Part shown: positions 27,191 to 43,911 of the stretch, piece by piece
Layout of the letters: each line of letters begins with the position of its first letter
How positions within the stretch are numbered: the first letter of the stretch is position 1
Assembly (NCBI GenBank): GCA_041652815.1
Contig: JBAZGN010000002.1
Location: 302,261-366,260, forward strand
Reading direction: 5' to 3'
Origin: Candidatus Omnitrophota bacterium
Lineage (GTDB): Bacteria; Omnitrophota; Gorgyraeia; Duberdicusellales; 4484-171
DNA: 64,000 nt
The notes under the pieces: generated by a model
Databases searched by the model: none
Seen by the model: only the letters and a program-made list of their open reading frames with translations
Told to the model about the DNA's origin: nothing
Position numbers and translations under genes: made by a program

Positions 27191-27209
27191 CGGGCAATCA
27201 GGAAAATAA

Positions 27210-28211: not shown

Positions 28212-28314
28212 TGAATGGTAGTATGTACTAAGCAACAAGCAACAGGTTTTGATTGGAGTATTGCGGGCATAAAACCTATTACTAAATTAATCCTTTCTGC
28301 TATAATATCTTTCA

Positions 28315-28650
28315 GTGAAAAAAAGAAAGAAAAAGAAATTTATAAGAACGGGTGCGTTTTGTGTTTATATTTTACTATGTCAGGACGGGACCTACTACAC
28401 CGGGCACACCAACGATTTAAAAAGGCGGCTTAAACAGCATAGTAGCGGTAAAGGCGCCTGGTATACAAGGGTAAAAGGGGCTGGTAGTGTGGTATGGCGT
28501 AAAGAATATCGGCGCTTTAAGCCTGCGTTTTTGATGGAAAACAGGATAAAGAAATTAACAAGATTACAAAAGGAATCGTTGGTTGGAGGTAAAAGATTAG
28601 ATAAAGTGTTGGCAAAGGCTGGGAATAAAAGATGCGAAACGAGGAGATGA
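28315..28650 (+). CDS. GIY-YIG domain protein (UPF0213/YhbQ-like)
   Basis: VYILLCQDGTYYTGHTNDLKRRLKQH matches GIY-YIG signature; GTG start, exact start uncertain. Confidence 0.55.
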   Translation: MKKRKKKKFIRTGAFCVYILLCQDGTYYTGHTNDLKRRLKQHSSGKGAWYTRVKGAGSVVWRKEYRRFKPAFLMENRIKKLTRLQKESLVGGKRLDKVLAKAGNKRCETRR

Positions 28651-28759
28651 AAGGTTTACAGCCGTATGCTATTAATTTCAATCCCTTTGCCAGAATTCCA
28701 CGGGCACGCCTGCCTTTGGCAGTCATGCCCGTGCGAGCTCCAGTTAGGAGGAGGAAAAA

Positions 28760-29416
28760 ATGAAAATATTGCTTTTGTCTTCGAGCCCACGTAAGGAAAA
28801 CAGCCAAACTCTTCTCTTGGCAAAGGAAGTTTTAAAAGGCTGCGATACGGCAAGCGTAAAATCTGAAATAATAAATTTGCACGACTTAAAAATTGAATTC
28901 TGCCGGCATTGTGAAGCCTGTCATAAGAAAATCCTTTGTTGCCCCATAGAGGATGATGTCGGTGCTGTTCTAAAAAATATGCTTGAGGCAGATGCGATAA
29001 TCTTAGCTTCACCTAATTATATAAATCAAATAACTGCCTCAATGAAGGCATTTTTTGACCGCTCCAGCCATTTCATCCATTGCAAGCGGCTTACGGGAAA
29101 ATATATTATCGGTGTAGTTTGTTCCGGAAGCGGCGAGGATGACGAAATTTTACGTTATATGAAACATTATGCCAACGCCTGTGGAGCGCAATATGCAGGG
29201 GGTGTATCTTCCGGCGTACCGGTGAGTGATGAGAAAAAGAAAGAAGGATTAAATTTAGGTAAGATGCTAACTGCAGCTATAAAAGAGAAAAAATTATTTC
29301 CGGAACAGCTCAGCATTATCGAAACAAATAAAGAGCGTTTCAAGAAAGTAATGGAAAAGCGAAAGGATGACTGGGCGGAGGAATACCAATATTGGAAAGA
29401 TAATGGCTGGTTGTAA
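28760..29416 (+). CDS. flavodoxin-like NAD(P)H-dependent FMN reductase / iron-sulfur flavoprotein family (paralog 2)
   Basis: MKILLLSSSPRKENSQT N-terminus, CRHCEACHKKILCC cysteine cluster. Confidence 0.6.
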   Translation: MKILLLSSSPRKENSQTLLLAKEVLKGCDTASVKSEIINLHDLKIEFCRHCEACHKKILCCPIEDDVGAVLKNMLEADAIILASPNYINQITASMKAFFDRSSHFIHCKRLTGKYIIGVVCSGSGEDDEILRYMKHYANACGAQYAGGVSSGVPVSDEKKKEGLNLGKMLTAAIKEKKLFPEQLSIIETNKERFKKVMEKRKDDWAEEYQYWKDNGWL

Positions 29417-29487
29417 TATGCATAAAAGGGATGAAAAATTATTTATCCGGACTTTCGGATGGTTGATGGCTACGCTGTAGGGATGGC

Positions 29488-30939
29488 ATGGGAAAGATAG
29501 TCCGTATACTTGTAGAAAAAAGCAAAATAGATAAGCCTATGCCAACAGGTTTAAATACTAAAATACCACCGATTTATACATTTGCTTTAGGGGTTATTTT
29601 TGTTATGGCGTTAATCGTCAGGTTGTATCCTGTAATAGGAACCACGGAAACAGCATATAGATACGGTTTTGGTATTTTTGGAGATACTGAACTTTATCAT
29701 GTAATTGCATATAATCTATACAAAGGAAATGGTTTCTCAGGCACCGATGACGGAAGAGCTTTTGGTCTAAAAGGCGGGGGAACGAATATCGAATACGAAC
29801 CGGCAATTACCCGTGGCCCTGTCTATCCATTTTTTATTTCGATGGTGTATAAAATTTTCGGCAGCGAAAAAAATATGGAATCAATACATACTTGGCGTAT
29901 CAACCTGGATAAGGTGCGGATAGTACAATGTTTTATGGATGCTTTCGTCTGTATACTTGTGTTTTTAATCACGTTTCTTATCTGCCAAAAGTCATTTTTC
30001 CCAGCGATAATATCCGCATTGTTATACTGCTTTAGTTTTTACAATATATTTTATTCAAGAGCGTTGCTTTCGGAATGTGTAACGACATTTTTACTTACCT
30101 TAATGCTGTTATTTTGTATTTTATCTTTAAAGTATAATAAAATATACTATTGGATTCTGGCTGGAATATGTCTTGGGCTAACAACTTTGTCGAGGCCGGA
30201 ATATTTATTTTTTACTTTGGTTTTTGCGTTTTATACACTTATCGTCGGCCATCGCCATATTCTAAACGTTCTCAAAAAATCCTTAATATTTGTTGTTGCG
30301 ACGGCAATAATTATTGCGCCGTGGACAGTTAGAAATTATCTAACCTTTAAAAAACCGATATTAGTTTCTGTGGGTGCGCTCGGAACTAGTTTATATATCG
30401 GCACATTAGAAACCAATGATAACTGGAAAAGTTGGAATGAGATGCCAGTAGACAAGGCATCTTTTAGGCAAGAGCAAGTAACCGCTAAATATTTGTATGA
30501 TTCTGCTATCCATTTTACATTACTTGGAAGCATAAAAGTGAAAGAGTTTGAAGACATTTTGATAAAATTATCATTAAAGCGCATCCGGAATAAGCCTTTG
30601 GAATCCTTTAAGATTTGGATAATGAGGATCCCAAGATTATGGTATCAATTTTATATCCCTATGTACGGATGCAGAGAAGCATCTGGAAATTTCTTTATTT
30701 TCTATTTTGTTTTCGCCGTATACTCTTTCTGGAAAAGCAGGAGAGAAGAAATTATATTAGCATTTCCGATAGTTCTTCTATTTATTTATCTTACTCTGAT
30801 TTTTTTACCTTTACATATAGAACCCCGCTATGGCGTAGCTTTAATGCCTTGCATTATAAGTTTAGCGGGTATTGGCATTTGGAAATTTGTTTCTTTAGCA
30901 AAGATTTTAACAAGAAAAAAACAGACAGATAGTAAGTAG
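29488..30939 (+). CDS. glycosyltransferase family 39-like (ArnT/PMT-type) membrane protein
   Basis: Multi-TM N-terminus with periplasmic-loop pattern typical of GT-C 39 enzymes. Confidence 0.5.
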   Translation: MGKIVRILVEKSKIDKPMPTGLNTKIPPIYTFALGVIFVMALIVRLYPVIGTTETAYRYGFGIFGDTELYHVIAYNLYKGNGFSGTDDGRAFGLKGGGTNIEYEPAITRGPVYPFFISMVYKIFGSEKNMESIHTWRINLDKVRIVQCFMDAFVCILVFLITFLICQKSFFPAIISALLYCFSFYNIFYSRALLSECVTTFLLTLMLLFCILSLKYNKIYYWILAGICLGLTTLSRPEYLFFTLVFAFYTLIVGHRHILNVLKKSLIFVVATAIIIAPWTVRNYLTFKKPILVSVGALGTSLYIGTLETNDNWKSWNEMPVDKASFRQEQVTAKYLYDSAIHFTLLGSIKVKEFEDILIKLSLKRIRNKPLESFKIWIMRIPRLWYQFYIPMYGCREASGNFFIFYFVFAVYSFWKSRREEIILAFPIVLLFIYLTLIFLPLHIEPRYGVALMPCIISLAGIGIWKFVSLAKILTRKKQTDSK

Positions 30940-31002
30940 AAAATGTTTAAACGTTATCTTTATTGCAGCAAATTTTATGAATAGAACCATCTTAACAAAA
31001 AC

Positions 31003-31157
31003 CTTCGATTGTCAGATGGGCAAATTGTTACACTCGGATTTTACGCTCCTTGGGGGAGTGGTATGATAAAGGTTAATTGTTTGAAGAATAAGAAGTTATG
31101 TAAATAAATTAAGAGTTAACCGAACGTAAGTGGAAAAGGAGTGACGGAAAGTTTAAT
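31003..31157 (+). promoter_or_regulatory. conserved leader/promoter element, copy 1
   Basis: Blocks gatgggcaaattgttacactcggattttacgct, ggagtggtatgataaaggttaatt and aaccgaacgtaagtggaaaag shared with 32300..32460. Confidence 0.6.
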
Positions 31158-32255
31158 ATGAAAAAGATACTCTTTGGGTCATTTGCAGTACTTTTTATTA
31201 ACTTTTTTTGTTTTGTTCAACTACCATTAGCAAGAGCCGACGAAGCCGCGACATTCGTTGGCATAATCGAATCTTTCCCGTGCGGGTTCGGTCAGTTCAA
31301 ATCTGGACCTCCTTTGTGGCCGGTTGGTATGATTGTGGTTACCGGTAATAATGGGGAAAAGAATAATTTTCTCATAGTCCGAGATGGGCCGAATGCCACT
31401 GTCTTTTATGATGCCGATGGTAAGGCCACGTCAGTCCTGAATGATATTAAGGGTATGAATGATATTAGGGCTATAATAGGTAAAAGAGTAGAGGTCAAGT
31501 ATGCGGTTACGGCAGAATCAATGCGTTACGCGAATAAGCAGCTTGCGATCTCGGTCCGCTTTGTGTCTCAAGATTATGTCTCACAGCCGGGGGTATTCGC
31601 AGAAGCAGGAAAACCGAACAACCCGGCGCCACAGTCATCAGGTCAGGGCGGAGTAAATTTATTTGTAGGCAAAATCGAATCTTCACCGCCGACTTTTCGT
31701 ATACCGCCGATGCGTAAGATCATACTTATTTCTAATAACGGTGAAAGGCTTACCGTTTTTGTATCCAGAGAGATTGCCATCAGGGATATGAAAGCTTACC
31801 CGACTCGTATAGGTGAAAGAGCGGAAGTTAAATATTTGCCTGCAGCAAACGGCGATAACGAGGCTGTTTCGTTCCGATATGTTCCTTCGGATTATGTCCA
31901 ACAACCAGCTGCACCAACAGTATCAACACAGACCCTTGCGGCAACAGCGGCAGGACAAGGGAACGTTTTTATAGGCAGGATCGAAAAGATTACGCCGACC
32001 GTTAGCCACGGCAACCTAACAGCGCCCCGCTGCAGGATTCTGGTTACCGCTGATAACGGAGAACAATCGGAATTCTTTGTATCCTGGGTTTGCCCTCTTA
32101 TGGACATGGCCGGAAAAGATTTGCATCAAGGGGTGAATGCCCCCTTTATCCTTAAAAAAGGCCAGCGTATCGAAATCAAATATTCGACTATAACAAACGG
32201 CAATAGTATAACTAATGGCCAGAAAGGGGCGGATTCGATCCGTTGCCTCGATTAA
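31158..32255 (+). CDS. secreted protein with three internal ~100-aa tandem repeats
   Basis: Signal peptide; repeats starting FVGIIESFPCG / FVGKIESSPPT / FIGRIEKITPT and ending V(R/S)F(V/R)Y..DYV.QP. Confidence 0.55.
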   Translation: MKKILFGSFAVLFINFFCFVQLPLARADEAATFVGIIESFPCGFGQFKSGPPLWPVGMIVVTGNNGEKNNFLIVRDGPNATVFYDADGKATSVLNDIKGMNDIRAIIGKRVEVKYAVTAESMRYANKQLAISVRFVSQDYVSQPGVFAEAGKPNNPAPQSSGQGGVNLFVGKIESSPPTFRIPPMRKIILISNNGERLTVFVSREIAIRDMKAYPTRIGERAEVKYLPAANGDNEAVSFRYVPSDYVQQPAAPTVSTQTLAATAAGQGNVFIGRIEKITPTVSHGNLTAPRCRILVTADNGEQSEFFVSWVCPLMDMAGKDLHQGVNAPFILKKGQRIEIKYSTITNGNSITNGQKGADSIRCLD

Positions 32256-32299
32256 GTCACATAAGAAATCATGAATACATCGAAACAAGTTTACATAAA

Positions 32300-32460
32300 A
32301 AATTTTGGTTGGCCGATGGACAAATCGTTACGCTCGGATTTTACACTCGCTGAAGGAGTGGTACGATAAGGGTTAATTATTTGCAGTATAATAAGTTAGG
32401 TAAAAATCAAAAAAGGGAACCGAACGTAAGTGAAAAAGTACAGTAAGGGGGTAAAGGGGA
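32300..32460 (+). promoter_or_regulatory. conserved leader/promoter element, copy 2
   Basis: cgatggacaaatcgttacgctcggattttacact ... ggagtggtacgataagggttaatt ... aaccgaacgtaagtgaaaaag. Confidence 0.6.
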
Positions 32461-33222
32461 ATGAAACAATGGTATGAATCGCTATTTGAGAATTACGCAG
32501 ATAAATACGATAAAGAAGTTTATGTTCACGGTACCTTGGGTGAGTGCGATTTTATTGAGCAAGAGATAAATCGGGATAAATCGTTAAAAATCATTGATGT
32601 CGGCTGCGGCACCGGCCGTCATTCTATTGAATTGGCAAAAAGAGGTTATCGGGTTACCGGTATCGATTTGTCAGAGTCACAGCTTAAAAGGGCGAGGGAA
32701 AAAGCAAAAGAGCAAGGAGTGAAGATCGACTTCGAGAGGCATGACGCCAGAAACCTTCCTTTTGAAGGCGAGTTCGATCTGGCGATCATGCTCTGTGAGG
32801 GTGGTTTTTCTTTAATGGAAACGGATGAGATGAATTTTGAAATATTAAAGAACGCGACAAAGGCGTTAAAAGATAAGGGCAAGTTTATATTCACGACATT
32901 GAACGGGTTATTTCCGCTTTTTCATTCCGTCAAAGAATTTTATGAGTCGGCGGCCAAAGAGGGTAATTCCGCCTGTAAAAATTGCTCCTTCGATCTGATG
33001 ACGTTCCGTGACCACAACACCGTCGCCTTCGAGGATGATGCAGGGAATAAAAAAGAATTAACATGTAATGAGCGTTACTATGTGCCGAGTGAAATAACCT
33101 GGCTTTTAAAATCGCTCGGATATAAAAAAATTGATATTTGCGGAGCAAAACTTGGAGCTTTTTCGAGGGAAGATAAACTTACGACAGAGAATTTTGAGAT
33201 GTTAGTTATCGCTGAAAAATAG
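32461..33222 (+). CDS. class I SAM-dependent methyltransferase
   Basis: IDVGCGTGRHS motif I, ITGIDLSE motif II. Confidence 0.65.
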   Translation: MKQWYESLFENYADKYDKEVYVHGTLGECDFIEQEINRDKSLKIIDVGCGTGRHSIELAKRGYRVTGIDLSESQLKRAREKAKEQGVKIDFERHDARNLPFEGEFDLAIMLCEGGFSLMETDEMNFEILKNATKALKDKGKFIFTTLNGLFPLFHSVKEFYESAAKEGNSACKNCSFDLMTFRDHNTVAFEDDAGNKKELTCNERYYVPSEITWLLKSLGYKKIDICGAKLGAFSREDKLTTENFEMLVIAEK

Positions 33223-33337
33223 AAATGATGTATAACGCACGAATGAGCACGAAATGAGGGACGTTCCCCAAGGGGACACCCTGGTGTTGTATAGCATATT
33301 GGGATACGATGAGTAAGTATAGCATATATATAAAGAC

Positions 33338-33702
33338 GTTCGGCTGACCCTTGGTTCGTTTTATACAAGTCTCTCAAAAACATCCTTCCGTTGCTTTTGG
33401 TATGAAATATGCACCGCCCGCTTGGGCGGGCTTGGTGGTTGGCGCATTCACCGCTCGCCCCGCCTTGGGCGGGGACTTCGCTGCCTCGCTCGCTGGGCCG
33501 CTCGCTCTCTCAAGCAGTCTTGCCTCGCGCTCCCTGCGCCGCTAGGGCGGCTCCGGGGCTTGGCAAGCCTGCGGAACCACGTTTGTCCCGCGGTCGTAGC
33601 GTTTTGATACCCTTCCTCAGGCACCCGCTTTCGTCGGGCTTTCGCGCTTCGCGCAAATTTTTTCCTTTTCAATAAATCCTTTTCGGCTGGCGGCGGGGGA
33701 AA
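33338..33702 (+). repeat. GC-rich long repeat A, copy A1 (inverted copy at 50698..51053)
   Basis: ~360 bp with near-identity to the reverse complement of 50698..51053 apart from a divergent ~50-bp middle; contains hairpins gcccgcttgggcgggc and ccccgccttgggcgggg; starts at core cgttcggctg. Confidence 0.85.
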
Positions 33703-34180
33703 GGGGGGTAAAGCCCTCCTCAAGCAGGCGCCATCGTCGGGGTATTGTTTTGCCTTAGTAAAGGCAAAACACCCCGCCAAACCATCCCCCGACCACCCAG
33801 CTGTCGCAGCCGGGCGGCTTCAATCGCCTTTGGCGATTTTCGCTCCACCCTTTATGCGCCAGCTTTCCCCTCAGCGGAAAAAGAAACCTGTATATTTGGT
33901 TTTTTTCAAATCCCCACCCACCCAACAGTCACAGTCGGGCGGCTCCAATCTGTCGATTTCCGCATCGCCCTTTATGTGCCTGTTTTCCCCCTAAGAAATA
34001 ATACGCTATAACCTGGATTCTCCTTTCATTTCTTTTCATTCTACATCCCACCCAGCGCTTCGCGCTTCCTCATTTGTCAAGGATACTACGGCTTCCTTCC
34101 CCGAAGGGGCAGGACTTCCGTTCCTCCTTGACAAACGAGCCTCTCTGGATGTTTTAAATAAAAAAATGAAAGGAGGTGTT
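33703..34180 (+). repeat. GC-rich structured non-coding block with two tandem ~85-bp units (U1 33786..33878, U2 33911..33993) and long hairpin ttgtcaagga...tccttgacaa
   Basis: Units cccacccaRcaGtcRcagYcgggcggctYcaatc...ccctttatgYgcc; hairpin gttttgccttagtaaaggcaaaac; no credible ORF; GC far above window average. Confidence 0.7.
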
Positions 34181-34182
34181 CA

Positions 34183-34434
34183 ATGGAAAAGAAAATTTAT
34201 AAGTTAGAAAAGAGGCCTAGTAAATACAAAGTTCCTACTGCCCATTCCTCAAAGTCCTTATATGACCTTCAGATGTATCTCAATAAAAGCCGTGTGCGAA
34301 AGGGTTTGAATGCCCGCAAGAAACTGGTTAAAAAGTACAAAAGGCCAAATGGTTTTCTTCCAATGCTCAAATTGCTCGCCTTCTATTATGCCCTTGTCGG
34401 GCTAGTTATCCTATTGGCAAAACTAGGTATTTAG
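34183..34434 (+). CDS. small basic protein with C-terminal TM helix
   Basis: RBS aaaggagg; 83 aa; C-terminal LKLLAFYYALVGLVILLAKL. Confidence 0.45.
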   Translation: MEKKIYKLEKRPSKYKVPTAHSSKSLYDLQMYLNKSRVRKGLNARKKLVKKYKRPNGFLPMLKLLAFYYALVGLVILLAKLGI

Positions 34435-34472
34435 ATATTGCACCCTGTATTCAAAATGTGGTATAATACAAT

Positions 34473-35519
34473 ATGGCTGAGTTTGTTGTATCGGATAACT
34501 CCTATTCCAACCTGCTAAAGCAGATAAAACACGAAATAACCGACGGCCTAGTCCGCGCCCAAAAGGCTTATGAACGGGAAAAAGTTATTTCTTACTGGAA
34601 AATTGGTCAAGCCATAGATAAACACCTGTTGGAGAATAAGGACAGAGCCGATTACGGCAAGCAGTTGTATAGCCGGCTTTCGCGCGATTTAAATATCGGC
34701 GAACGCTTGCTTTACCAGATGTCGCAATTCTATTATGCCTACCCGGATTTAAAGCCTTCGCAAAACCTTAAATGGTCTCATTACCGGTTGCTGACTTCGG
34801 TTAAAGACGAAGAGCAGAGGGCTATACTCGAAACCAAAGCCGCCGACGACAACTGGTCGAAGCGCGCCTTGGAAACTTTCATTAAGGACGACAAGGAAAA
34901 AAGCGTTAAAGCCGCCAAGCCAAAATCTACAAAACTATCTTTTTTTAAGGGCCAGCTTTATACTTACGGTATATTTAAAGACGCTTGTGCTGAAAATGTT
35001 CTTATAGACTGCGGGTTTAATGTTTACTATGAATCAGATATGACAAAGTTCCCCGCTACCTCATTAAAGTCATCGGGCGGATCCGCCTTTGGCAGAAGCG
35101 GCAATCTGGTAGAAACTGTTAAAACCGGCGACACTTACAAGCTGGTCAAGTCCAACGCCACCCTTAAGCATTTATACACCTATAAAGCCTACGTTAAAAA
35201 AATCGTGGACGGCGATACCCTTTGGGTAACCATAGATTGCGGGTTTAAAATCTGGGTCAGTCAGAAGCTCCGCTTGCGCGGCATAGACACGCCTGGCATT
35301 ACAACCAAAGAGGGCATGAAATCTTACAAGTTCGTTTGCAATGAACTTAAAGGCTTACCGTTTGTTATAATAAAAAGCCACGGCCGGGATAAATACGACC
35401 GTTACCTTACGGATATATTCTACTTAAAGGACGGAAAAGACCCCCTAGCGGTCTTAGAGAAAGGTGAATTCTTAAACCAAAGGCTTTTAGACGCAAGCTT
35501 AGCAGATAGAGAGTTTTAG
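34473..35519 (+). CDS. DUF1016_N (YhcG-like N-terminal domain) fused to staphylococcal-nuclease-like (SNase/thermonuclease) domain
   Basis: N-terminal YWKIGQAI...RADYGKQLYSRLSRDL...WSHYRLL matches YhcG DUF1016_N; C-terminal IVDGDTLWV...LRLRGIDTPG...DKYDRYL matches SNase (DGDT, RLxGIDTPE, DKYGR) with the catalytic Glu position replaced by Gly. Confidence 0.65.
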   Translation: MAEFVVSDNSYSNLLKQIKHEITDGLVRAQKAYEREKVISYWKIGQAIDKHLLENKDRADYGKQLYSRLSRDLNIGERLLYQMSQFYYAYPDLKPSQNLKWSHYRLLTSVKDEEQRAILETKAADDNWSKRALETFIKDDKEKSVKAAKPKSTKLSFFKGQLYTYGIFKDACAENVLIDCGFNVYYESDMTKFPATSLKSSGGSAFGRSGNLVETVKTGDTYKLVKSNATLKHLYTYKAYVKKIVDGDTLWVTIDCGFKIWVSQKLRLRGIDTPGITTKEGMKSYKFVCNELKGLPFVIIKSHGRDKYDRYLTDIFYLKDGKDPLAVLEKGEFLNQRLLDASLADREF

Positions 35520-35585
35520 ATTATGTTAAGCTGGAATCCTTCGAAGCTTTAGAGCAGTAGGACGAAAGCCTTGCCGAGAGTTAAA

Positions 35586-35605
35586 CTACGTAGTATACTA
35601 CGTAG
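35586..35605. promoter_or_regulatory. perfect 20-bp palindrome CTACGTAGTATACTACGTAG (candidate operator overlapping -10-like TATACT)
   Basis: Exact self-complementary 20-mer 18 bp upstream of the AbrB-like small ORF. Confidence 0.6.
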
Positions 35606-35622
35606 TAATGGGGGTGTAGATA

Positions 35623-35799
35623 ATGGCACAACATAAGAAAAAAGGCGGCGTTACCCGAAAAATCACCAAGACTGGCGATTATACTTATTACGTAACCATT
35701 CCCGCGGAATATATCGAGGAGTTGGGCTGGCGCTGTAAACAAAAGGTATTGGTTAAACTTTTAGGGAAAAAAGTGGTTATTGAGGATTGGAGGGGATAG
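35623..35799 (+). CDS. small AbrB/MazE-like (swapped-hairpin) DNA-binding protein, 58 aa (below track threshold)
   Basis: MAQHKKKGGVTRKITKTGDYTYYVTIPAEYIEELGWRCKQKVLVKLLGKKVVIEDWRG; TIP..I..LG...G..V pattern of SpoVT/AbrB domain. Confidence 0.5.
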   Translation: MAQHKKKGGVTRKITKTGDYTYYVTIPAEYIEELGWRCKQKVLVKLLGKKVVIEDWRG

Positions 35800-35886
35800 A
35801 ATTGCCCTTCTCACTCAGGGTTGTTTGGATCATTTAAATGGTGTATAATCAACTAATATTTCCTAATTTTAAGGAGAAGATAGCTA

Positions 35887-37341
35887 ATGTTTGAGCAAAC
35901 CTTTAAGAATATTGACGATATCCTGCATAAAGATGCCGGGTGCAGTAGCGAGCTGGATTATGTGGAGCAGACCTCATGGATTCTCTTCTTGAAATATCTT
36001 GATGATCTCGAGAAAGATAAAAAAACAGCGGCAAAGCTATCAGGCAAGGCTCACGCGGGTATTATTAGCCCGGAATATCGCTGGGAAGTCTGGGCAGTCC
36101 CTAAAGATAATGACGGCAAGATTGATCATCACAAGGCGCTTACCGGAGATGATTTAAAAGATTTTGTCGACCACAAGTTATTTCCCTACCTAAAAAAGTT
36201 TAAAACCAATGCCGAGAGCGCCGATACTATCGAGTATAAAATTGGCGAGATTTTTAGCGAGCTTAAAAATAGAATCCAGAGTGGTTATAATCTGCGAGAG
36301 GTTATTAATTTAATAGATGAACTGCGTTTCCGTTCCCATGCCGAAAAACATGAGATGTCTCATCTATATGAGGACAAGATCAAGAATATGGGGAATGCGG
36401 GTAGAAACGGCGGGGAATATTACACGCCCCGTCCGCTTATCAAAACCATCGTGAAAGTTGTCGCTCCGGAAATCGGAAGCAAGATTTATGATGGCGCAGT
36501 AGGTTCGGCAGGGTTTTTGTGCGAAGCATTTGAATATCTTAAGACCAAAAAAAATCTAACCACAAAAGACGCCCAGACCCTACAGAAAAACACCTTTTAC
36601 GGCAAAGAAAAGAAATCGCTCGCCTACATCATCGGTACGATGAACATGATTTTGCATGGCATCGAGGCGCCGAATATCGTGCATACCAATACGCTTGCGG
36701 AAAACCTCGCCGATATTCAAGAAAAAGATCGTTATGATATTGTTCTCGCCAATCCGCCATTTGGTGGCAAGGAACGTGCCGAGGTGCAACAGAATTTCCC
36801 TATCAAGACCGGTGAAACGGCGTTTTTATTCTTACAGCATTTCATCAAGATTCTGAAAGCTGGCGGTCAGGCTGGCGTAGTGATTAAAAACACTTTCCTC
36901 TCCAACGCGGACAATGCTTCAGTCAGTCTTCGCAAACTTCTGCTGGAAAGCTGTAATCTGCATGCAGTCCTTGATCTGCCCGGCGGTACATTTACTGGCG
37001 CAGGTGTTAAGACTGTCGTACTTTTCTTTGAGAAAGGCGTTCCGACGCGTAAGGTTTGGTTTTATCAGCTAAATCTTGACCGCAACCTTGGCAAGACTAA
37101 CCCGCTGAATGAAAATGATCTCGCTGATTTCTTAATGCTTCAAAAGACCAAAGCGGACTCAGAGAATTCTTGGTCTGTTGATATTGTCGATGTAGATAAG
37201 GAAACAAGCGATCTATCGGTCAAGAATCCGCATAGAAGAAATGAAATAACTATTCGCGCCCCTCAAATAATTCTAGATGAAATGCAGACGCTGGACATGG
37301 AAAGCGCGAAGATATTGAAGGGCATAAAAGAGCTGTTATGA
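35887..37341 (+). CDS. hsdM: type I restriction-modification system methyltransferase subunit
   Basis: N6-adenine MTase motifs: NPPFG (ANPPFGGKERAEV), motif I GSAGFL; HsdM_N-like N-terminus. Confidence 0.85.
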   Translation: MFEQTFKNIDDILHKDAGCSSELDYVEQTSWILFLKYLDDLEKDKKTAAKLSGKAHAGIISPEYRWEVWAVPKDNDGKIDHHKALTGDDLKDFVDHKLFPYLKKFKTNAESADTIEYKIGEIFSELKNRIQSGYNLREVINLIDELRFRSHAEKHEMSHLYEDKIKNMGNAGRNGGEYYTPRPLIKTIVKVVAPEIGSKIYDGAVGSAGFLCEAFEYLKTKKNLTTKDAQTLQKNTFYGKEKKSLAYIIGTMNMILHGIEAPNIVHTNTLAENLADIQEKDRYDIVLANPPFGGKERAEVQQNFPIKTGETAFLFLQHFIKILKAGGQAGVVIKNTFLSNADNASVSLRKLLLESCNLHAVLDLPGGTFTGAGVKTVVLFFEKGVPTRKVWFYQLNLDRNLGKTNPLNENDLADFLMLQKTKADSENSWSVDIVDVDKETSDLSVKNPHRRNEITIRAPQIILDEMQTLDMESAKILKGIKELL

Positions 37342-38489
37342 GTAATCGATGGGAAAATAAAACTCTTGGCGAAGTCTGTGAGATTTTGGATAACAGACGC
37401 AAGCCAATCACAAAACGAGATCGGACTGCCGGTGAGTATCCTTACTACGGAGCTACTGGTATTTTGGATTATGTGCATGATTATATTTTTGATGAAAAGT
37501 TGATTTTGATTGGTGAGGATGGGGCAAAATGGGGAGCTGGTGAGAATACGGCATTTATTGCAGAAGGAAAATATTGGGTGAATAATCACGCCCATGTTAT
37601 CAGGCCTGATAGAAAAATTGTTTTAGATAATTGGTTAGTTTATTTCTTAAACTTTAGCGATTTATCCAAGTACGTTACAGGTTTAACAGTCCCCAAGCTC
37701 AATCAAGCGAAGATGCGAGAAATTTCACTGCCTCTTCCACCGATTTCCGAGCAAAAGAAAATGCTTCATGTAATTGATGAGATTTTCGAAAAGACAACTA
37801 AGGCAAAAGAAAACGCTGAAAAGAATCTGCAAAATGCTCGAGAGCTTTTTGAGTCGTACTTGCAAAGCATTTTTGCCAATCCGGGCGATGATTGGGAAGA
37901 AAAAAGTGTTGGTGAGATTGCTGATATTGAATATGGATTCACTGATAAAGCAAAATACGCGGGTGATTATCGATACATCAGGATCACGGATATTGATAAG
38001 AACGGAAATTTAGTAAAAGATGGCAAGGTTTTTGTTGATGCTTCCGAAGAGGCTAAAAAATATTTATTAAAGGATGGTGATCTGTTAATGGTAAGGACCG
38101 GCGCAACCTATGCGAAAGTATTGCTATACAAAGACATTGAAAAATCAATTTTTGCTTCTTATTTGATCCGGATCAAGTTTAGACAGGATATTGTAAACAA
38201 GCTTTACTGGTATTTCTCCAAATCCAGAATTTATTGGGAACAAGCAAACAAGCTTTCTTCTGGCTCTGCTCAGCCACAGTTTAACGGCGGAGTATTAAAA
38301 GAGCTTGTGTTTTATTTTCCGAGATCCTTTGAGAAACAAGGACAGATTGTCACCAAGCTTGATGCTCTTTCCACGGAGATTAAAAAACTCGAGATTGTAT
38401 ATCAGCAGAAGCTAATTGATCTTGAAGAACTTAAGAAACCGATATTACATAAGGCCTTTAACGGTGAACTCGCAGGAGTATGCTCATGA
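37338..38489 (+). CDS. hsdS: type I restriction-modification system specificity subunit
   Basis: Two target-recognition domains separated by conserved coiled-coil repeats; overlaps hsdM stop and hsdR start. Confidence 0.8.
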   Translation: MSNRWENKTLGEVCEILDNRRKPITKRDRTAGEYPYYGATGILDYVHDYIFDEKLILIGEDGAKWGAGENTAFIAEGKYWVNNHAHVIRPDRKIVLDNWLVYFLNFSDLSKYVTGLTVPKLNQAKMREISLPLPPISEQKKMLHVIDEIFEKTTKAKENAEKNLQNARELFESYLQSIFANPGDDWEEKSVGEIADIEYGFTDKAKYAGDYRYIRITDIDKNGNLVKDGKVFVDASEEAKKYLLKDGDLLMVRTGATYAKVLLYKDIEKSIFASYLIRIKFRQDIVNKLYWYFSKSRIYWEQANKLSSGSAQPQFNGGVLKELVFYFPRSFEKQGQIVTKLDALSTEIKKLEIVYQQKLIDLEELKKPILHKAFNGELAGVCS

Positions 38490-40792
38490 ATGAAGCCGAA
38501 ACCAGAGCAGAATATATTGATCCTAAGCTAAAAGCCAGCGGCTGGGGTATCGTGGAAGGCACCAAGGTTCTGCGTGAATACAAAATCACTGCCGGTAAAA
38601 TCCAGACTGGTGGAGGTCGCGCCAAGCCGTTGATTGCTGACTATGTTCTGGTGTATCGCGGTCGTAAGCTTGCCATCATTGAAGCCAAGAGTGATGAGCT
38701 TGAAGTTGGCGAAGGCGTTGCTCAAGCCAAGAACTATGCCGAAATGATGCATCTTGATACGACTTATGCCAGTAACGGCAAAGAGATTTACCAAATCTGT
38801 ATGAAAACCGGGAAGGAAGGCTTGGTTGCTTCTTTCCCGTCACCGGAAGAATTATGGAATAGAACTTTTGAGACGCAAAACCAATGGCGGGATAAGTTTA
38901 ATCAAGTCCCGTTTGAAGATGTCGGCGGTACAAAAGAAGTGCGCTATTATCAGGAAATCGCGGTTAATAACGCTATGGCCGCCATTGCCGAAGATAAACC
39001 GCGCATATTGCTTACCTTGGCCACAGGCACCGGTAAAACCTTCATCGCTTTTCAGATAGCGTGGAAACTTTATCATACCCGCTGGAACTTGAAGCGCGAT
39101 GGAAGCCGTAGACCTCGTATTTTATTTCTTGCCGATAGAAATATTCTTGCTGATCAGGCATTCAACGCCTTTTCAACATTCCCCGAGGACGCGCTCGTTC
39201 GAATTAACCCCAAAGAAATCAGCAAAAAAGGCAGTGTTCCGACTAACGGCAGTATTTTCTTTACCATCTTTCAGACCTTTATGAGCGGTAAGGATAAAGA
39301 CGGTAAGCCTGCTCCATACTTTGGCGAATATCCTGTAGATTATTTTGATTTTATCATTATTGATGAATGTCATCGCGGCGGGGCGAATGACGAAAGCAAT
39401 TGGCGAGGTATTCTGGAATATTTCTCTCCTGCTGTACAGCTCGGCCTTACCGCAACGCCTAAACGTAAAGATAACGTTGATACTTATCGCTATTTTGGTG
39501 ATCCGGTTTATGTATATTCGCTTAAAGAAGGTATCAACGATGGATTTTTAACACCGTTTAAAATTAAGCGAATCAAGACGACTATTGATGATTATGTTTA
39601 TACTTCGGACGATAAGATTATAGAAGGTGAAATTGAAGAGGGGAGAATATACACAGAGCCGGATTTCAATAGAATTATAGAGATTAAAGAGCGTGAATCT
39701 AAGCGAGCGCAGATATTCCTTTCTGAAATTAATCAAAAAGAGAAAACTATCGTTTTTTGTGCTACCCAAGATCATGCGCTCGCAGTACGCGATCTGGTTA
39801 ATCAATATAAAGATAGCAAGGAACCCAATTATTGTGTGCGCGTTACCGCTAACGATGGTTTTCTTGGTGAACAGTATTTGAGAGAATTTCAGGATAACGA
39901 GAAAACCATCCCAACGATACTAACTACCTCACAAAAATTATCTACGGGCGTAGATGCGCGTAATATTAGAAATATTATACTTATGCGGCCGATTAATTCT
40001 ATAATTGAGTTTAAACAAATTATTGGACGTGGGACACGGTTATTTGAAGGGAAAGATTATTTTACTATTTATGATTTCGTTGATGCGTATCACCATTTTT
40101 TAGATCCTACTTGGGATGGTGAACCAATAGACGAAACAAAGGAGAAGGAGCCAAAGAAGCCGAAAGAGCCACCTGTTCCTCCAGAACCACCTGAGCCGCC
40201 CAAGAAGAAGATTAAGATTAAGCTGCGCGATGGTAAGGAGAGAGAAATACAGCATATGATTGCGACAACTTTCTTAAGTGCTGATGGTAGGCCAATGTCT
40301 GCAGAAGAATTCTTAAAGAGCATCTTTGGGGCATTGCCTGAATTCTTCAAAAATGAAGACGAGTTGCGTAAAATTTGGTCTAACCCGATTACCCGGAGGG
40401 CGTTGCTTGAAAAACTATTTAATGCTGGCTACGGTAAAGATGAACTAGCTGCTTTGCAGAAATTAATTAATGCTGAGAAGAGCGATCTATTTGATGTCCT
40501 CGAATACATTTCTTTCGCTATAAAACCAATCACGCGAGAAGAACGTGTTGCACAGGCACAGACAAAGATTTTTCAAGGGTTGGATAATAAACAAAAGGAG
40601 TTTCTGGAGTTTGTGCTTTCTAAATATATTGAAACTGGTGTGGAGGAGCTTGATCAGGAAAAACTGCCAGACCTTCTGACTCTGAAATATCAGGCAATTC
40701 GTGACGCAGAGGAAATATTGGGCGGGGTTGATAGTATCCGTGCCACTTTTATTGATTTCCAGAAGTATTTGTATGAGAAAGTGGTAGTTTGA
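38486..40792 (+). CDS. hsdR: type I restriction endonuclease subunit R (short, ~769 aa)
   Basis: N-terminal MNEAETRAEYIDPKL nuclease domain, helicase motifs ATGTGKT and DECH (IIIDECHRG), SAT/QxxGR motifs; proline-rich insert EPPVPPEPPEPP. Confidence 0.8.
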   Translation: MNEAETRAEYIDPKLKASGWGIVEGTKVLREYKITAGKIQTGGGRAKPLIADYVLVYRGRKLAIIEAKSDELEVGEGVAQAKNYAEMMHLDTTYASNGKEIYQICMKTGKEGLVASFPSPEELWNRTFETQNQWRDKFNQVPFEDVGGTKEVRYYQEIAVNNAMAAIAEDKPRILLTLATGTGKTFIAFQIAWKLYHTRWNLKRDGSRRPRILFLADRNILADQAFNAFSTFPEDALVRINPKEISKKGSVPTNGSIFFTIFQTFMSGKDKDGKPAPYFGEYPVDYFDFIIIDECHRGGANDESNWRGILEYFSPAVQLGLTATPKRKDNVDTYRYFGDPVYVYSLKEGINDGFLTPFKIKRIKTTIDDYVYTSDDKIIEGEIEEGRIYTEPDFNRIIEIKERESKRAQIFLSEINQKEKTIVFCATQDHALAVRDLVNQYKDSKEPNYCVRVTANDGFLGEQYLREFQDNEKTIPTILTTSQKLSTGVDARNIRNIILMRPINSIIEFKQIIGRGTRLFEGKDYFTIYDFVDAYHHFLDPTWDGEPIDETKEKEPKKPKEPPVPPEPPEPPKKKIKIKLRDGKEREIQHMIATTFLSADGRPMSAEEFLKSIFGALPEFFKNEDELRKIWSNPITRRALLEKLFNAGYGKDELAALQKLINAEKSDLFDVLEYISFAIKPITREERVAQAQTKIFQGLDNKQKEFLEFVLSKYIETGVEELDQEKLPDLLTLKYQAIRDAEEILGGVDSIRATFIDFQKYLYEKVVV

Positions 40793-40953
40793 TAATTCTA
40801 ATTCGGTGGGCACGCACGTAATTATTTACAATTAGGTCTCCAGAATTTCAGAATTTTTCAGATGTTTTGGCGATAGAGATTATCGAAAACATCGAGGTTG
40901 GGTTGGAGAGCTTTAAGAGGATTATTGAGAAATTAAATAAGTAGGCACCTTAA

Positions 40954-42450: not shown

Positions 42451-42656
42451 AGTGCCGTAAATTATGGAGGTTTTTATGCCCGACGGAGGATTTTTAGTTA
42501 AGTTTGACGGTAAAGAAGCGTTCAGGTGCTATGAGATAAGTTTTTCTTATGATTCGTTTACATACCGCATTAACAACGAAGAGCCTAAAGAATTTCCCAA
42601 GGAAGGTATTGGGAAAATAGAAATAATCCTCGAATAACCTGCAACAGTAAAAAAGC

Positions 42657-43910: not shown

Positions 43911-43911
43911 T

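What the first reader, a model, noticed from the sequence alone, without database searches (positions are those of the whole stretch)
34473..35519. Domain-swapped YhcG-like protein: DUF1016_N fused to a staphylococcal-nuclease domain with Glu43-to-Gly
The N-terminal ~150 aa match the YhcG DUF1016_N pattern (YWKIGQ, RADYGKQL, LSRDL, WSHYRLL). The usual C-terminal PD-(D/E)xK nuclease is replaced by an SNase/thermonuclease domain (IVDGDTLWV, LRLRGIDTPG, DKYDRYL). Ca-binding Asp residues and both Arg are retained, but the general-base Glu of DTPE is Gly. The gene sits directly upstream of a type I R-M system. DUF1016 proteins are frequent companions of such systems. It has a near-leaderless extended -10 promoter (tgtggtataat 5 nt before the ATG).
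Basis: partly seen in the sequence, partly recalled or inferred. Interest (0 to 1): 0.65.

Follow-up and report, generated by a model that had tools for sequence, protein, structure and literature searches.

The report
DNA-reader fused to eroded staphylococcal-type nuclease
The gene is real and belongs to a large, undescribed bacterial family that joins a ParB-like DNA-binding domain to a staphylococcal-type nuclease; in this lineage the catalytic site has decayed, and the gene heads a small self-regulated module beside which restriction and other defence genes repeatedly sit.

Summary
The ORF 34473..35519 (+, 348 aa) is as described. It has a DUF1016_N domain (Pfam E 2.8e-20). The C-terminal domain has the staphylococcal-nuclease (SNase) fold (Foldseek E 3e-6; family profile vs PDB E 4.9e-6). 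Gly275 sits at the Glu43 position.

- The fusion is a stable family, not a one-off: 711 clusters at 50% identity, 413 loci in species-representative genomes, and Leptospira plasmids.
- Most members keep Asp40/Glu43. Only the window's subclade varies at both sites, while the rest of the domain stays conserved. Attenuated or lost catalysis is therefore likely.
- The SNase domain lacks its last ~40 residues and is preceded by a partial duplicate of its first hairpin.
- DUF1016_N models as a ParB/Noc-type DNA-binding domain.
- The leaderless extended -10 promoter is conserved in relatives and overlaps a dyad operator.
- A 58-aa AbrB/MazE-fold gene with its own operator (TACGTA-N6-TACGTA) follows, then a 53-aa gene.
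- The type IB R-M block (35798..42465) is an indel between those two small genes and is absent from the closest relatives. In 9 of 13 close-clade loci, R-M or defence genes occupy that side.

Function is inferred, not shown.

The parts
34183..34434 (+). 83-aa ORF with a basic N-terminus and a hydrophobic C-terminal tail. It is an optional upstream companion of the module.
   Evidence: ORF. Homologues lie directly upstream of the fusion gene in L017 and L019 and in L095 and L096. No Pfam, PHROG or PADLOC family.
34438..34454 (+). O1, a degenerate copy (TTGCAC-CCTGT-ATTCAA) of the dyad TTGCAC-N5-GTGCAA. In relatives this dyad overlaps the -35 element and the spacer of the fusion-gene promoter.
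   Evidence: The palindrome is perfect in L004, L005, L006, L016, L019 and L096. Both arms change together (TTGAAC...GTTCAA) in L009 and L018. The window and L095 share two mismatches in the right arm.
34459..34467 (+). Extended -10 element TGGTATAAT, 5 nt before the ATG. This implies a leaderless mRNA.
   Evidence: Sequence. TATAAT/TATACT lies 5-6 nt before the start codon in 11 close-clade loci, and at -12/-13 in six distant loci. There is no SD sequence, whereas the AbrB-like gene and hsdM have one.
34473..34922 (+). Residues 1-150: the DUF1016_N domain, modelled as a long helix followed by a ParB/Noc-type HTH DNA-binding domain.
   Evidence: Pfam E 2.8e-20. PADLOC PDC-S02 models match the N-terminal part only. 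AF2 model pLDDT 91. The top 33 Foldseek PDB hits are all ParB/Noc/Spo0J/SopB/VirB DNA-binding domains, for example 6y93_A with TM 0.72 normalised to the target, at weak E-values of 0.03-2. The profile hits Spo0J 151-197 at E 0.0047.
34926..35168 (+). Residues 152-232: a beta-rich middle segment containing a partial duplicate (LYTY...IDCGF) of the first hairpin of the SNase domain, without DGDT. It also has a low-confidence loop at residues 200-208.
   Evidence: hhalign of 156-185 against 228-261 gives probability 95.5%, E 1.4e-8. A 17-nt DNA repeat, 35004-35020 and 35232-35248, is 94% identical. Secondary structure.
35169..35519 (+). Residues 233-348: an SNase-fold domain that ends at the equivalent of SNase residue ~110, so Tyr113, Tyr115 and helix 3 are absent. 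Gly275 (35295..35297) stands at the Glu43 position.
   Evidence: Residue statistics.
35571..35604 (+). Promoter-like site TTGCCG-17-TATACT, together with O2 = TACGTAGTATACTACGTA (35587..35604). O2 is a dyad centred on the -10 element of the AbrB-like gene.
   Evidence: Promoter scan. O2 is unique in the window, with 0.02 matches expected by chance. Among the 92 loci held at that point, it occurs only in loci that carry the small gene, always just upstream of it. Intergenic regions are shown. L004 keeps an O2-like site beside a decayed gene remnant.
35623..35799 (+). 58-aa AbrB/MazE/SpoVT-fold protein with no C-terminal tail. It is the dedicated partner of the fusion gene in this subclade.
   Evidence: Translation. 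Pfam MazE_antitoxin E 1e-4 (22.5 bits against a 24.7 cut-off), while two homologues reach 25.2 bits. It is the only recurrent neighbour in 86 loci. NCBI names it an AbrB/MazE/SpoVT family protein. In the reciprocal test, homologues of about 56% identity or more lie after a fusion gene.
35798..42465 (+). A 6.67-kb block that is missing from the closest relatives. It holds hsdM (35887..37341), hsdS (37338..38489), hsdR (38480..40792, EcoAI/FtnUII type IB family) and a 498-aa DUF8370/DUF8371 gene (40954..42450). This is cargo, not part of the core module.
   Evidence: Pfam and NCBIfam. L095 and L096 are collinear up to 35797 and resume at 42466/42475. Precomputed Pfam. PADLOC PDC-M36A for the 498-aa protein.
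42476..42637 (+). Third conserved small gene (53 aa, MPDGGFLVKFDG...). In relatives without cargo it starts 13-16 nt after the AbrB-like gene.
   Evidence: It is also present after a different type IB R-M in L004. It lies on the far side of other cargo in L099, L100 and L104. No family hit.

Best explanation
The gene encodes a member of a large, uncharacterised family of two-module DNA-directed proteins. The N-terminal DUF1016_N domain is a ParB/Noc-type helix-turn-helix reader. The effector is a shortened staphylococcal-nuclease domain, preceded by a partial duplicate of its own first hairpin. It takes the place of the PD-(D/E)xK nuclease found in YhcG proteins.

Most of the family keeps the full Ca2+-nuclease constellation, so the ancestral activity is DNA cleavage tethered to a DNA-reading domain. 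The window protein belongs to a subclade in which the Asp40 and Glu43 positions drift freely (Gly275 here). The phosphate clamp and the first metal ligand (D246, D248, T249, R267, K307, R310) stay invariant. I infer that it still binds nucleic acid but cleaves weakly or not at all.

In this subclade the gene heads a self-regulated module:
- a leaderless extended -10 promoter overlapped by a dyad operator, O1, most likely bound by the protein's own HTH domain as a dimer (autorepression);
- a 58-aa AbrB-fold DNA-binding protein with its own operator, O2, over its -10 element;
- a 53-aa protein of unknown fold.

R-M and other defence genes repeatedly sit just downstream of the AbrB-like gene. In three lineages the third small gene then lies on their far side. 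The window's type IB R-M block is one such cargo.

Shown: architecture, fold, residue states, conserved operators and promoters, gene linkage and the indel. Inferred: who binds O1 and O2, the loss of activity, and a defence-island role as a nuclease-derived effector or regulator.
For: Architecture and fold.

Family size and stability:
- 1554 word-search hits, of which the top 120 are mostly near full length.
- 413 loci in GTDB representatives from Omnitrophota, Planctomycetota, Latescibacterota, Leptospiraceae and others.
- 711 clusters at E<=1e-30 for the C-terminal profile; 125 of 140 new representatives carry all three parts.
- Leptospira plasmids carry full-length homologues.

Catalytic residues:
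- D21, T22, R35 and R87 equivalents are invariant in 115/115 sequences.
- Position 40: D73, N27, E10, other 5. Position 43: E60, G25, P10, S9, A5, D4, N1, T1.
- 68 of 87 genome loci have D..E.
- On an NJ tree there are at least 7 changes between Glu and non-Glu, and 22 state changes at position 43. All fall in the window's part of the tree apart from one small outlying group (P0082, P0085, P0117, P0118). In the subclade, the SNase domain remains the best-conserved domain (67% against 61% for the N-terminal domain).

Promoter and O1: including the two-arm change TTGAAC/GTTCAA in L009 and L018.

O2 and the AbrB-like gene.

Third gene and the indel.

Defence cargo next to the module:
- type IB R-M (window, L004);
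- hsdM (L017);
- type II m5C R-M with Vsr (L013);
- PDC-M24 plus HKD-Snf2 plus type IIG enzyme (L005/L014);
- DruA (L009);
- type II MTase plus DrmE-like protein (L019);
- TaqI_C protein (L096);
- a reverse-transcriptase-like ORF (L099, identified by eye).

Literature: DUF1016 genes are enriched beside R-M and inversion targets, odds ratio 17 (PMC9881135).
Against: - No biochemical data exist for any DUF1016 or YhcG protein in the searchable literature.
- A PDC-S02 (DUF1016) representative gave no protection against T4, T5 or T7 in E. coli (bioRxiv 10.1101/2024.09.26.614923).
- The ParB-like assignment rests on weak scores (Foldseek E 0.03-2, HMM E 0.005-0.009), although the hit list is homogeneous.
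- O1 is degenerate in the window itself and is not distinguishable from chance there. Most distant family members show neither O1 nor a partner gene.
- Strict invariance of D21, R35 and R87 could equally mean that catalysis persists by a modified mechanism.
- From my own knowledge of published SNase mutants: Glu43 variants retain measurable activity.
- The AbrB-like protein lacks the C-terminal tail that classical antitoxins use, so its relation to the nuclease protein is unclear.
Confidence: 0.5

Rival explanations
1. The pair is a toxin-antitoxin or abortive-infection pair. The fusion protein is a still-active, merely weakened nuclease toxin aimed at DNA by its HTH domain. The AbrB/MazE-fold protein is its antitoxin and co-repressor. 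The pair stabilises the defence island or kills infected cells.
For: - An AbrB/MazE-fold gene is tightly linked.
- In four distant loci with canonical D..E residues it lies immediately upstream (gaps of 12-15 nt in L025 and L029), the classical antitoxin-toxin order.
- Palindromic operators are conserved at both promoters.
- Several diverged paralogues occur per genome, at 36-94% identity, as is typical of TA families.
- Neighbours include RelB/YafQ, PemK, MqsA-like and DUF433/DUF5615 modules and transposases.
- D21, R35, K84 and R87 equivalents are invariant.
Against: - The small protein ends with the AbrB domain and has no toxin-binding tail.
- In the window's subclade it lies downstream with its own promoter.
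- Most family members (about 70 of 86 loci) have no such partner.
- L004 and L006 keep the fusion gene intact with the partner decayed or absent.
- More distant AbrB-like homologues sit beside RecG, RuvA or hsdM with no fusion gene nearby.
- D40 and E43 are eroded in this subclade.
Confidence: 0.25
2. In this subclade the protein is a catalytically dead, nuclease-derived DNA-binding regulator. With the AbrB-like repressor it controls expression of whatever defence cargo lies downstream, in the manner of C-proteins or BrxR-type regulators.
For: - Both catalytic positions drift.
- Dyad operators are conserved.
- The module sits at the 5' edge of varied R-M and defence cargo in 9 of 13 close-clade loci.
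- AbrB-like homologues directly precede hsdM in L130-L133.
- No terminator was found between the genes.
Against: - No O1 or O2 copy lies in front of hsdM or elsewhere in the window.
- hsdM has its own promoter-like TGTATAAT and an SD sequence.
- Some loci (L006, L010, L011) have no cargo.
- The SNase domain is the most conserved part, which a plain repressor would not need.
Confidence: 0.2
3. The protein is a dedicated accessory or guard of the adjacent type I R-M system, comparable to PrrC embedded in EcoprrI. It would work only together with HsdMSR.
For: The gene is adjacent to type I R-M in the window, L004/L015, L017 and L072. The literature reports DUF1016 genes in or beside type I R-M loci (PMC9881135; PMC1189080).
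Against: - The R-M block is absent from the two closest relatives, which keep the module intact.
- HsdM of the window and of L004 are only 39% identical.
- Other loci carry type II or IIG R-M, a Druantia gene (DruA), a DISARM-like protein or an RT-like ORF, or nothing.
- Most of the roughly 80 distant loci have no hsd gene within 10 kb.
Confidence: 0.05
4. The gene serves a mobile element: a homing or site-specific nuclease, or a plasmid-stability function like the SNase-related ParB nuclease of plasmid RP4. That would account for its multi-copy spread.
For: - Up to five or more copies occur per genome.
- Homologues lie on Leptospira plasmids next to IS, Rpn and RHS genes.
- A transposase or recombinase lies nearby in L011 and L009.
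- The architecture, a sequence-reading domain plus a non-specific nuclease, resembles that of homing or type IIS enzymes.
Against: - Paralogues are diverged and DNA similarity stops at the gene borders, with no terminal repeats or shared flanks.
- No recurrent integrase or transposase neighbour was found.
- No full-length copy is present in 50,697 phage records.
Confidence: 0.05

Closest known systems
YhcG / DUF1016 family (COG4804; Pfam PF17761 plus PF06250; PADLOC candidate PDC-S02)
   Same: It shares the N-terminal DUF1016_N domain (E 2.8e-20) and about the same overall size. It shares the habit of sitting beside R-M systems and on mobile or accessory DNA.
   Different: The C-terminal PD-(D/E)xK nuclease (E-D-E(I/L/V)K motif) is absent. 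An SNase-fold domain plus a duplicated hairpin stands in its place. YhcG itself has no demonstrated function.
Staphylococcal nuclease / thermonuclease (Pfam PF00565; phage 'endonuclease' phrog_452)
   Same: It has the same OB-type fold and motif register: DGDT, Arg35, D-T-P, D-K-Y-x-R. Most family members have all the catalytic residues.
   Different: It is not secreted and is fused to a DNA-binding domain. It lacks SNase residues ~110-149, including Tyr113 and Tyr115. It carries an inserted invariant D-x-G-F hairpin. In this protein Glu43 is Gly.
ParB/Noc/Spo0J DNA-binding domain
   Same: The modelled fold of residues ~55-145 matches, as does the short motif WSHYRLL against GHGRTLL. Like these proteins, it would bind a ~16-23 bp dyad site.
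   Different: There is no N-terminal CTP-binding ParB/Srx domain and no C-terminal dimerisation domain. Similarity scores are weak.
AbrB/MazE-type type II toxin-antitoxin modules
   Same: A small AbrB-fold gene is linked to a nuclease gene, with a palindromic operator at its own promoter. The family is multi-copy and sits in accessory regions.
   Different: The small protein has no toxin-binding tail. The gene order is reversed, with separate promoters, in this subclade. Most family members have no partner.
Regulators at the head of defence islands (R-M C-proteins, BrxR/WYL-type)
   Same: It occupies the position at the 5' edge of variable R-M and defence cargo, with dyad operators.
   Different: There is no sequence or fold relation, and no operator copies lie in front of the cargo genes here. 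The comparison rests on my own knowledge, not on a test.

Membership tests
YhcG / DUF1016 (COG4804) | N-terminal DUF1016_N domain (PF17761) | tested here: met
   Pfam E 2.8e-20, 73.2 bits against a 32.8 cut-off, residues 17-139. PADLOC PDC-S02 models match residues 8-155 only.
YhcG / DUF1016 (COG4804) | C-terminal PD-(D/E)xK nuclease domain (PF06250, motif E-D-E(I/L/V)K) | tested here: not met
   No PF06250 hit at E<=1. The C-terminal half has the SNase fold.
Staphylococcal nuclease (SNase) superfamily | SNase OB-type fold | tested here: met
   Foldseek E 3e-6, TM 0.68 normalised to the target, rmsd 2.1 A over 118 columns. Family profile against PDB E 4.9e-6. phrog_452 E 8e-25.
Staphylococcal nuclease (SNase) superfamily | Pfam PF00565 gathering score | tested here: not met
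   14.7 bits against 21 for this protein. About half of the listed homologues carry a precomputed PF00565 hit.
Staphylococcal nuclease (SNase) superfamily | Ca2+ ligands Asp21, Asp40 and Thr41, and Arg35 and Arg87 | tested here: met
   D248, D272, T273, R267 and R310 in the register. D21, R35 and R87 equivalents are invariant in 115/115 sequences.
Staphylococcal nuclease (SNase) superfamily | General-base Glu43 | tested here: not met
   Gly275 (GGC, 35295..35297). The family has E60, G25, P10, S9, A5, D4, N1, T1 at this position.
Staphylococcal nuclease (SNase) superfamily | C-terminal segment with Tyr113, Tyr115 and helix 3 | tested here: not met
Staphylococcal nuclease (SNase) superfamily | Ca2+-dependent hydrolysis of DNA and RNA | not testable with these tools
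   Needs an enzyme assay.
ParB/Noc-type HTH DNA-binding domain | HTH-containing helical domain superposable on ParB or Noc DNA-binding domains | tested here: inconclusive
   The top 33 Foldseek hits are all ParB-family DNA-binding domains, but at E 0.03-2. Spo0J HMM hit E 0.0047. Pfam HTH_ParB E 0.009, below its cut-off.
ParB/Noc-type HTH DNA-binding domain | N-terminal ParB/Srx CTP-binding domain | tested here: not met
   No such domain in Pfam or in the model. Residues 8-54 form a single long helix.
Type II toxin-antitoxin (AbrB/MazE antitoxin) | Adjacent small AbrB/MazE-fold gene | tested here: met
   The gene at 35623..35799 hits Pfam MazE_antitoxin at E 1e-4 (22.5 bits against 24.7); two homologues reach 25.2 bits. 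The linkage is conserved.
Type II toxin-antitoxin (AbrB/MazE antitoxin) | Antitoxin with a toxin-binding extension, co-transcribed with the toxin | tested here: not met
   The small protein ends with the AbrB domain. In this subclade it has its own promoter and operator downstream of the fusion gene. An upstream position occurs in only 4 distant loci.
Type II toxin-antitoxin (AbrB/MazE antitoxin) | Toxicity neutralised by the partner | not testable with these tools
   Needs expression experiments.
Type I R-M accessory gene | Obligate co-occurrence with hsdMSR | tested here: not met
   L095 and L096 lack the R-M block. Most family loci have no hsd gene nearby.

The most novel reading that the evidence does not exclude
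The three-gene unit would be a portable 'gatekeeper' of a defence-gene slot. The unit consists of the ParB-HTH/pseudo-SNase protein, the AbrB-fold repressor and the 53-aa protein. Unrelated R-M and defence cassettes are repeatedly found directly after the AbrB-like gene, in three lineages with the third gene on their far side. The nuclease-derived protein would act as a DNA- or nucleotide-sensing regulator, or as a backup effector, for whatever cargo is present. This would be a new class of defence-island organiser built from a decayed nuclease.
Probability: 0.2. Interest if true: 0.75.

Novelty: new variant of a known kind. Interest (0 to 1): 0.5.

Why it matters
DUF1016/YhcG proteins are among the commonest unexplained companions of restriction systems, and no function has been shown for any of them. 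This family offers three leads.

- The DUF1016_N domain is a portable ParB-like DNA reader that can carry different nuclease effectors. That narrows what the whole superfamily may do.
- The family is a natural experiment. One branch keeps a textbook SNase active site. Another lets two catalytic positions drift while conserving the rest. This makes catalytic versus binding roles directly testable.
- The conserved operators, the leaderless promoter, the AbrB-like partner and the precisely bounded R-M indel define a compact module beside a defence-gene slot in poorly studied phyla (Omnitrophota, Latescibacterota). Relatives on plasmids of cultivable Leptospira could be used for experiments.

Tried and rejected
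- **Obligate link to type I R-M: rejected.** The 6.67-kb R-M block is missing from the closest relatives.
- **IS-like or identical multi-copy element: rejected.** Paralogues are 36-94% identical and DNA similarity is confined to the gene.
- **Recent local domain swap: rejected.** 125 of 140 further cluster representatives share the architecture.
- **RNA genes in the flanks:** no tRNA or tmRNA was found in the window. No Rfam family was found around the gene or in the GC-rich upstream spacer.
- **Extra operator copies:** none were found for O1 or O2 elsewhere in the window. My first O1 pattern used the wrong spacer (N7) and was corrected to N5.
- **The small genes:** PADLOC, Pfam and NCBIfam gave nothing for the 83-aa and 53-aa proteins. 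PADLOC and NCBIfam gave nothing for the AbrB-like protein.
- **PDB sequence search:** a phmmer search with the single protein found nothing; only the profile search did.
- **Homologue search with the 58-aa protein:** it returned only 11 close relatives.
- **General palindrome upstream of distant family members:** not above chance.
- **Repeat arrays and tyrosine recombinases** near Latescibacterota paralogues were seen but not resolved.
Full report
**1. The observation**

The ORF at 34473..35519 (+, 348 aa) is present exactly as described, and all quoted motifs are in its translation.

- Pfam places DUF1016_N at residues 17-139 (E 2.8e-20) and finds no PD-(D/E)xK/YhcG_C domain. Its SNase model scores only 14.7 bits, below the cut-off.
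- PADLOC's DUF1016 candidate models (PDC-S02) match only the N-terminal 150 residues.
- The SNase assignment holds on independent grounds:
  - An AlphaFold model built on 36 relatives (pLDDT 88.4) matches staphylococcal nuclease crystal structures. The scores are E 3e-6, TM 0.68 normalised to the target, and rmsd 2.1 A over 118 columns.
  - A profile of the family hits PDB thermonuclease chains at E 4.9e-6, with DGDT, Arg35, DTPE and DKYGR in register.
  - The phage family phrog_452 'endonuclease' scores E 8e-25.
- In that register D248=Asp21, R267=Arg35, D272=Asp40, T273=Thr41, G275=Glu43 and R310=Arg87.

**2. It is a family, not a one-off**

- A word-based search found 1554 relatives. Most of the best 120 are near full length (about 300-396 aa), a few being truncated. 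They come largely from Omnitrophota MAGs, and many carry precomputed PF17761 plus PF00565.
- A scan of one genome per species found 413 loci in Omnitrophota, Planctomycetota, Latescibacterota, Gemmatimonas, Leptospiraceae, Marinamargulisbacteria and others. Often there are 2-5 or more copies per genome.
- A profile of the C-terminal 197 residues, run against 1.84 billion representatives, found 711 clusters at E<=1e-30. Of 140 new representatives, 125 have the N-terminal, middle and SNase parts together. The rest look like N-terminally truncated calls.
- Full-length homologues (27-29% identity) are annotated 'DUF1016 N-terminal domain-containing protein' on Leptospira interrogans, L. weilii and L. 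kirschneri plasmids.
- So the 'swap' is old and fixed.
- I found no paper describing it. The 16 papers that mention DUF1016 and those that mention YhcG treat only the PD-(D/E)xK form.

**3.

- *Truncation.* The SNase domain stops at the equivalent of SNase residue ~110. It lacks Tyr113, Tyr115 and the last helix.
- *Duplication.* Residues 156-185 (LYTY...IDCGF) are a partial duplicate of the start of the SNase domain, 228-261, without the DGDT motif. hhalign gives probability 95.5% and E 1.4e-8. A 17-nt stretch is still 94% identical at the DNA level.
- *Family-specific residues.* A D-x-G-F hairpin (D255, G257, F258) and D314 are nearly invariant and have no SNase counterpart. Their role is unexplained.
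- *The N-terminal domain.* Modelled alone (pLDDT 91.4), its 33 best PDB matches are all ParB/Noc/Spo0J/SopB/VirB DNA-binding domains. An example is the Noc DNA-binding domain on DNA, 6y93_A, at TM 0.72 normalised to the target. E-values are weak, 0.03-2. The family profile hits Spo0J residues 151-197 at E 0.0047, and Pfam HTH_ParB scores E 0.009.
- I therefore read DUF1016_N as a ParB-type HTH DNA reader. This is likely but not proven.

**4. The catalytic site**

- Across 115 full-length relatives, the equivalents of Asp21, Thr22, Arg35 and Arg87 are invariant, and Asp19 and Lys84 nearly so.
- Position 40 reads D73, N27, E10, other 5. Position 43 reads E60, G25, P10, S9, A5, D4, N1, T1.
- In species-representative genomes, 68 of 87 loci have D..E.
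- On a neighbour-joining tree the distant part of the family is almost uniformly D..E. The variation lies in the part of the tree that holds the window protein, apart from one small outlying group (P0082, P0085, P0117, P0118).
  - At least 7 changes between Glu and non-Glu are needed, with 22 state changes at position 43 and 19 at position 40.
  - Many members are altered at both positions, for example N..G and N..S.
  - Yet in the same sequences the SNase domain is the best-conserved domain: 67% mean pairwise identity, against 61% for the N-terminal domain and 53% for the middle segment.
- The Leptospira plasmid proteins have Trp at the Asp40 position.
- My inference: the ancestral protein is a Ca2+-type nuclease. 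In this subclade canonical catalysis is relaxed while nucleic-acid binding is kept.
- From my own knowledge of the SNase literature, Glu43 mutants lose two to four orders of magnitude of kcat but are not dead. 'Attenuated' and 'inactive' cannot be separated here.

**5. Promoter and operator of the gene**

- TGGTATAAT (34459..34467) ends 5 nt before the ATG, and there is no Shine-Dalgarno sequence.
- In 11 related loci whose proteins are 51-84% identical, TATAAT or TATACT stands 5-6 nt before the start codon, usually preceded by TG. Six distant loci also have a -10 box at -12/-13.
- This conservation supports the leaderless reading.
- Directly upstream, overlapping the -35 element and the spacer, those loci share the dyad ATATTGCAC-N5-GTGCAATAT. 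In L009 and L018 both arms have changed together (TTGAAC...GTTCAA), as expected of a site read by a symmetric dimer.
- The window and its nearest relative L095 carry a copy with two mismatches in the right arm (34438..34454). On its own this copy is not above chance.
- The site is also present where the AbrB-like gene is absent or decayed (L004, L006). The fusion protein's own HTH domain is therefore the most likely binder. This is an inference.

**6. Partner genes**

- It has the AbrB/MazE/SpoVT fold. Pfam MazE_antitoxin gives E 1e-4 for the window copy, just under the cut-off, while two relatives pass it. NCBI names it an AbrB/MazE/SpoVT family protein.
- It is the only recurrent neighbour across 86 loci. 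It lies 60-115 nt downstream of the fusion gene in nine close-clade loci, and immediately upstream in four distant loci.
- In front of it lies TACGTAGTATACTACGTA (35587..35604).
  - The site is unique in the window, with 0.02 matches expected by chance.
  - A -10-like TATACT sits at its centre.
  - Among the 92 loci held at that point, the pattern TACGTA-N6-TACGTA occurs only where the small gene is, and always just upstream of it.
- In the reciprocal test, 80 metagenome loci were fetched with the small protein.
  - Copies of about 56% identity or more follow a fusion gene in 16 of 17 loci, 14 of them within about 300 nt.
  - More distant copies never do. They sit next to RecG, RuvA, GIY-YIG genes or hsdM, often with the same TACGTA boxes.
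- The protein has no tail beyond the AbrB domain. That argues against a classical antitoxin.

**7. The R-M system is cargo**

- The two nearest relatives, L095 (about 84% nucleotide identity) and L096 (about 75%), are collinear with the window from the 83-aa ORF through the AbrB-like gene. They then continue directly at window 42466/42475.
- Hence 35798..42465 is an indel. It contains hsdM, hsdS, hsdR and a 498-aa DUF8370/DUF8371 gene.
  - HsdR is of the EcoAI/FtnUII type IB family (819 bits against a 550 cut-off).
  - The 498-aa protein matches PADLOC PDC-M36A.
- The indel begins at the stop codon of the AbrB-like gene and ends just before a third conserved small gene (42476..42637, 53 aa).
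- In L095, L096, L009, L018 and L019 that third gene starts 13-16 nt after the AbrB-like gene.
- In L004 a different type IB system (HsdM 39% identical) occupies the same slot. There the AbrB-like gene is reduced to a remnant beside an O2-like site, and the third gene appears frameshifted.
- Other close-clade loci carry, on the same side:
  - a type II m5C R-M with Vsr (L013);
  - PDC-M24 plus an HKD-Snf2 helicase plus a type IIG enzyme (L005/L014);
  - DruA plus NurA-like and HerA-like (DUF87) genes (L009);
  - hsdM (L017);
  - a type II methyltransferase plus a DrmE-like protein (L019);
  - a TaqI_C protein (L096);
  - a reverse-transcriptase-like ORF and a DUF262-like ORF (L099, identified by eye only).
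- L006, L010 and L011 have no defence gene there. L095 ends too soon to tell.
- Thus 9 of 13 distinct close-clade loci have R-M or defence genes on that side. The link is to a defence slot, not to type I R-M specifically.
- Distant family members are mostly solitary genes in variable regions with TA modules and transposases.

**8. Mechanism: best reading and rivals**

- *Best reading (confidence about 0.5).*
  - The protein is a dimeric ParB-like DNA reader carrying a nuclease-derived domain that, in this lineage, binds but hardly cuts.
  - The gene is autorepressed at O1.
  - The AbrB-like protein autoregulates at O2.
  - The module sits at the head of a defence-gene slot.
- *Rivals.*
  - An attenuated nuclease toxin with the AbrB-like protein as antitoxin: 0.25.
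  - A purely regulatory pseudo-nuclease controlling the cargo: 0.2.
  - A dedicated guard of the type I R-M: 0.05, largely refuted by the indel.
  - A mobile-element nuclease: 0.05.
- A DUF1016 (PDC-S02) representative did not protect E. coli from T4, T5 or T7 in one preprint. So even the defence role of the wider superfamily is unproven.

**9. Verdict**

- The finding is a new variant of a known but uncharacterised kind: YhcG-like proteins with an exchanged effector.
- It is present in databases under generic names, but I found no description of it in the searchable literature.
- It is of moderate interest. The architecture itself is unsurprising for defence-island genes. The following give concrete, testable leads into an unexplained superfamily:
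  - the ParB-like reading of DUF1016_N;
  - the lineage-specific erosion of two catalytic positions;
  - the conserved operators;
  - the bounded R-M indel.

Noticed in passing
window 33222..34180: A non-coding, GC-rich (about 50%, against about 42% in the flanks) spacer lies upstream of the module. It has two ~80-nt direct repeats 120-125 nt apart (33787-33870 and 33912-33990). It also has inverted repeats (34069-34083/34125-34139 and 34020-34048/34147-34175). No tRNA or Rfam family matches it.
   Followed up: partly
window 40954..42450: A 498-aa protein travels with the R-M block. It has precomputed Pfam DUF8370/DUF8371, PADLOC candidate PDC-M36A (E 7e-19) and phrog_30194 (E 1e-28). My Pfam copy gave no significant hit.
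   Followed up: partly
window 34183..34434: An 83-aa ORF has a basic N-terminus and a hydrophobic C-terminal segment. It is conserved directly upstream of the fusion gene in L017, L019, L095 and L096, but not in other relatives. No family matches it.
   Followed up: partly
window 8746..8938: Cobalamin riboswitch (RF00174, 92.5 bits) on the + strand.
   Followed up: no
window 1..64000: Essentially all long ORFs that look like genes lie on the + strand across the whole 64 kb. This is an unusually strict co-orientation.
   Followed up: no
L004 9012..9176 and 14330..14510: In the locus with a different type IB R-M in the same slot, the AbrB-like gene is reduced to 'MA*' plus a C-terminal fragment beside an O2-like site (TACGTA-N8-TACGTA). 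The third small gene appears frameshifted. This may be real decay or an assembly error.
   Followed up: partly
L049 11160..11740; also L034, L039 and L042: Downstream of Latescibacterota paralogues lie arrays of dispersed 45-80-nt repeats containing CTGTATT heptamers. Tyrosine-recombinase-like ORFs occur 1-2 kb away in L039, L042 and L069. A cassette-like organisation is possible but was not resolved.
   Followed up: partly
L130-L133 (~4001..4171), L117, L128, L139: More distant homologues of the AbrB-like protein, often with TACGTA boxes upstream, sit directly before hsdM (22-nt gap) or RecG, or after RuvA and GIY-YIG genes. No fusion gene is nearby.
   Followed up: partly
L093 4881..5879, L094 4860..5852: The Leptospira plasmid homologues (WP_142499955.1, WP_025180825.1) have Trp at the Asp40 position but keep Glu43. 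They lie among RHS/polymorphic-toxin, IS982 and Rpn genes.
   Followed up: partly
L099 2495..5653; L104 998..4639: Here the third small gene lies on the opposite strand, beyond 1.8-2 kb of other cargo. In L099 the neighbours are an RT-like ORF with a YIDD motif, an Xre-like HTH and a DUF262-like ORF. In L104 they are a Zn-ribbon-repeat protein and a family-A polymerase-like ORF. I identified these by eye only.
   Followed up: no
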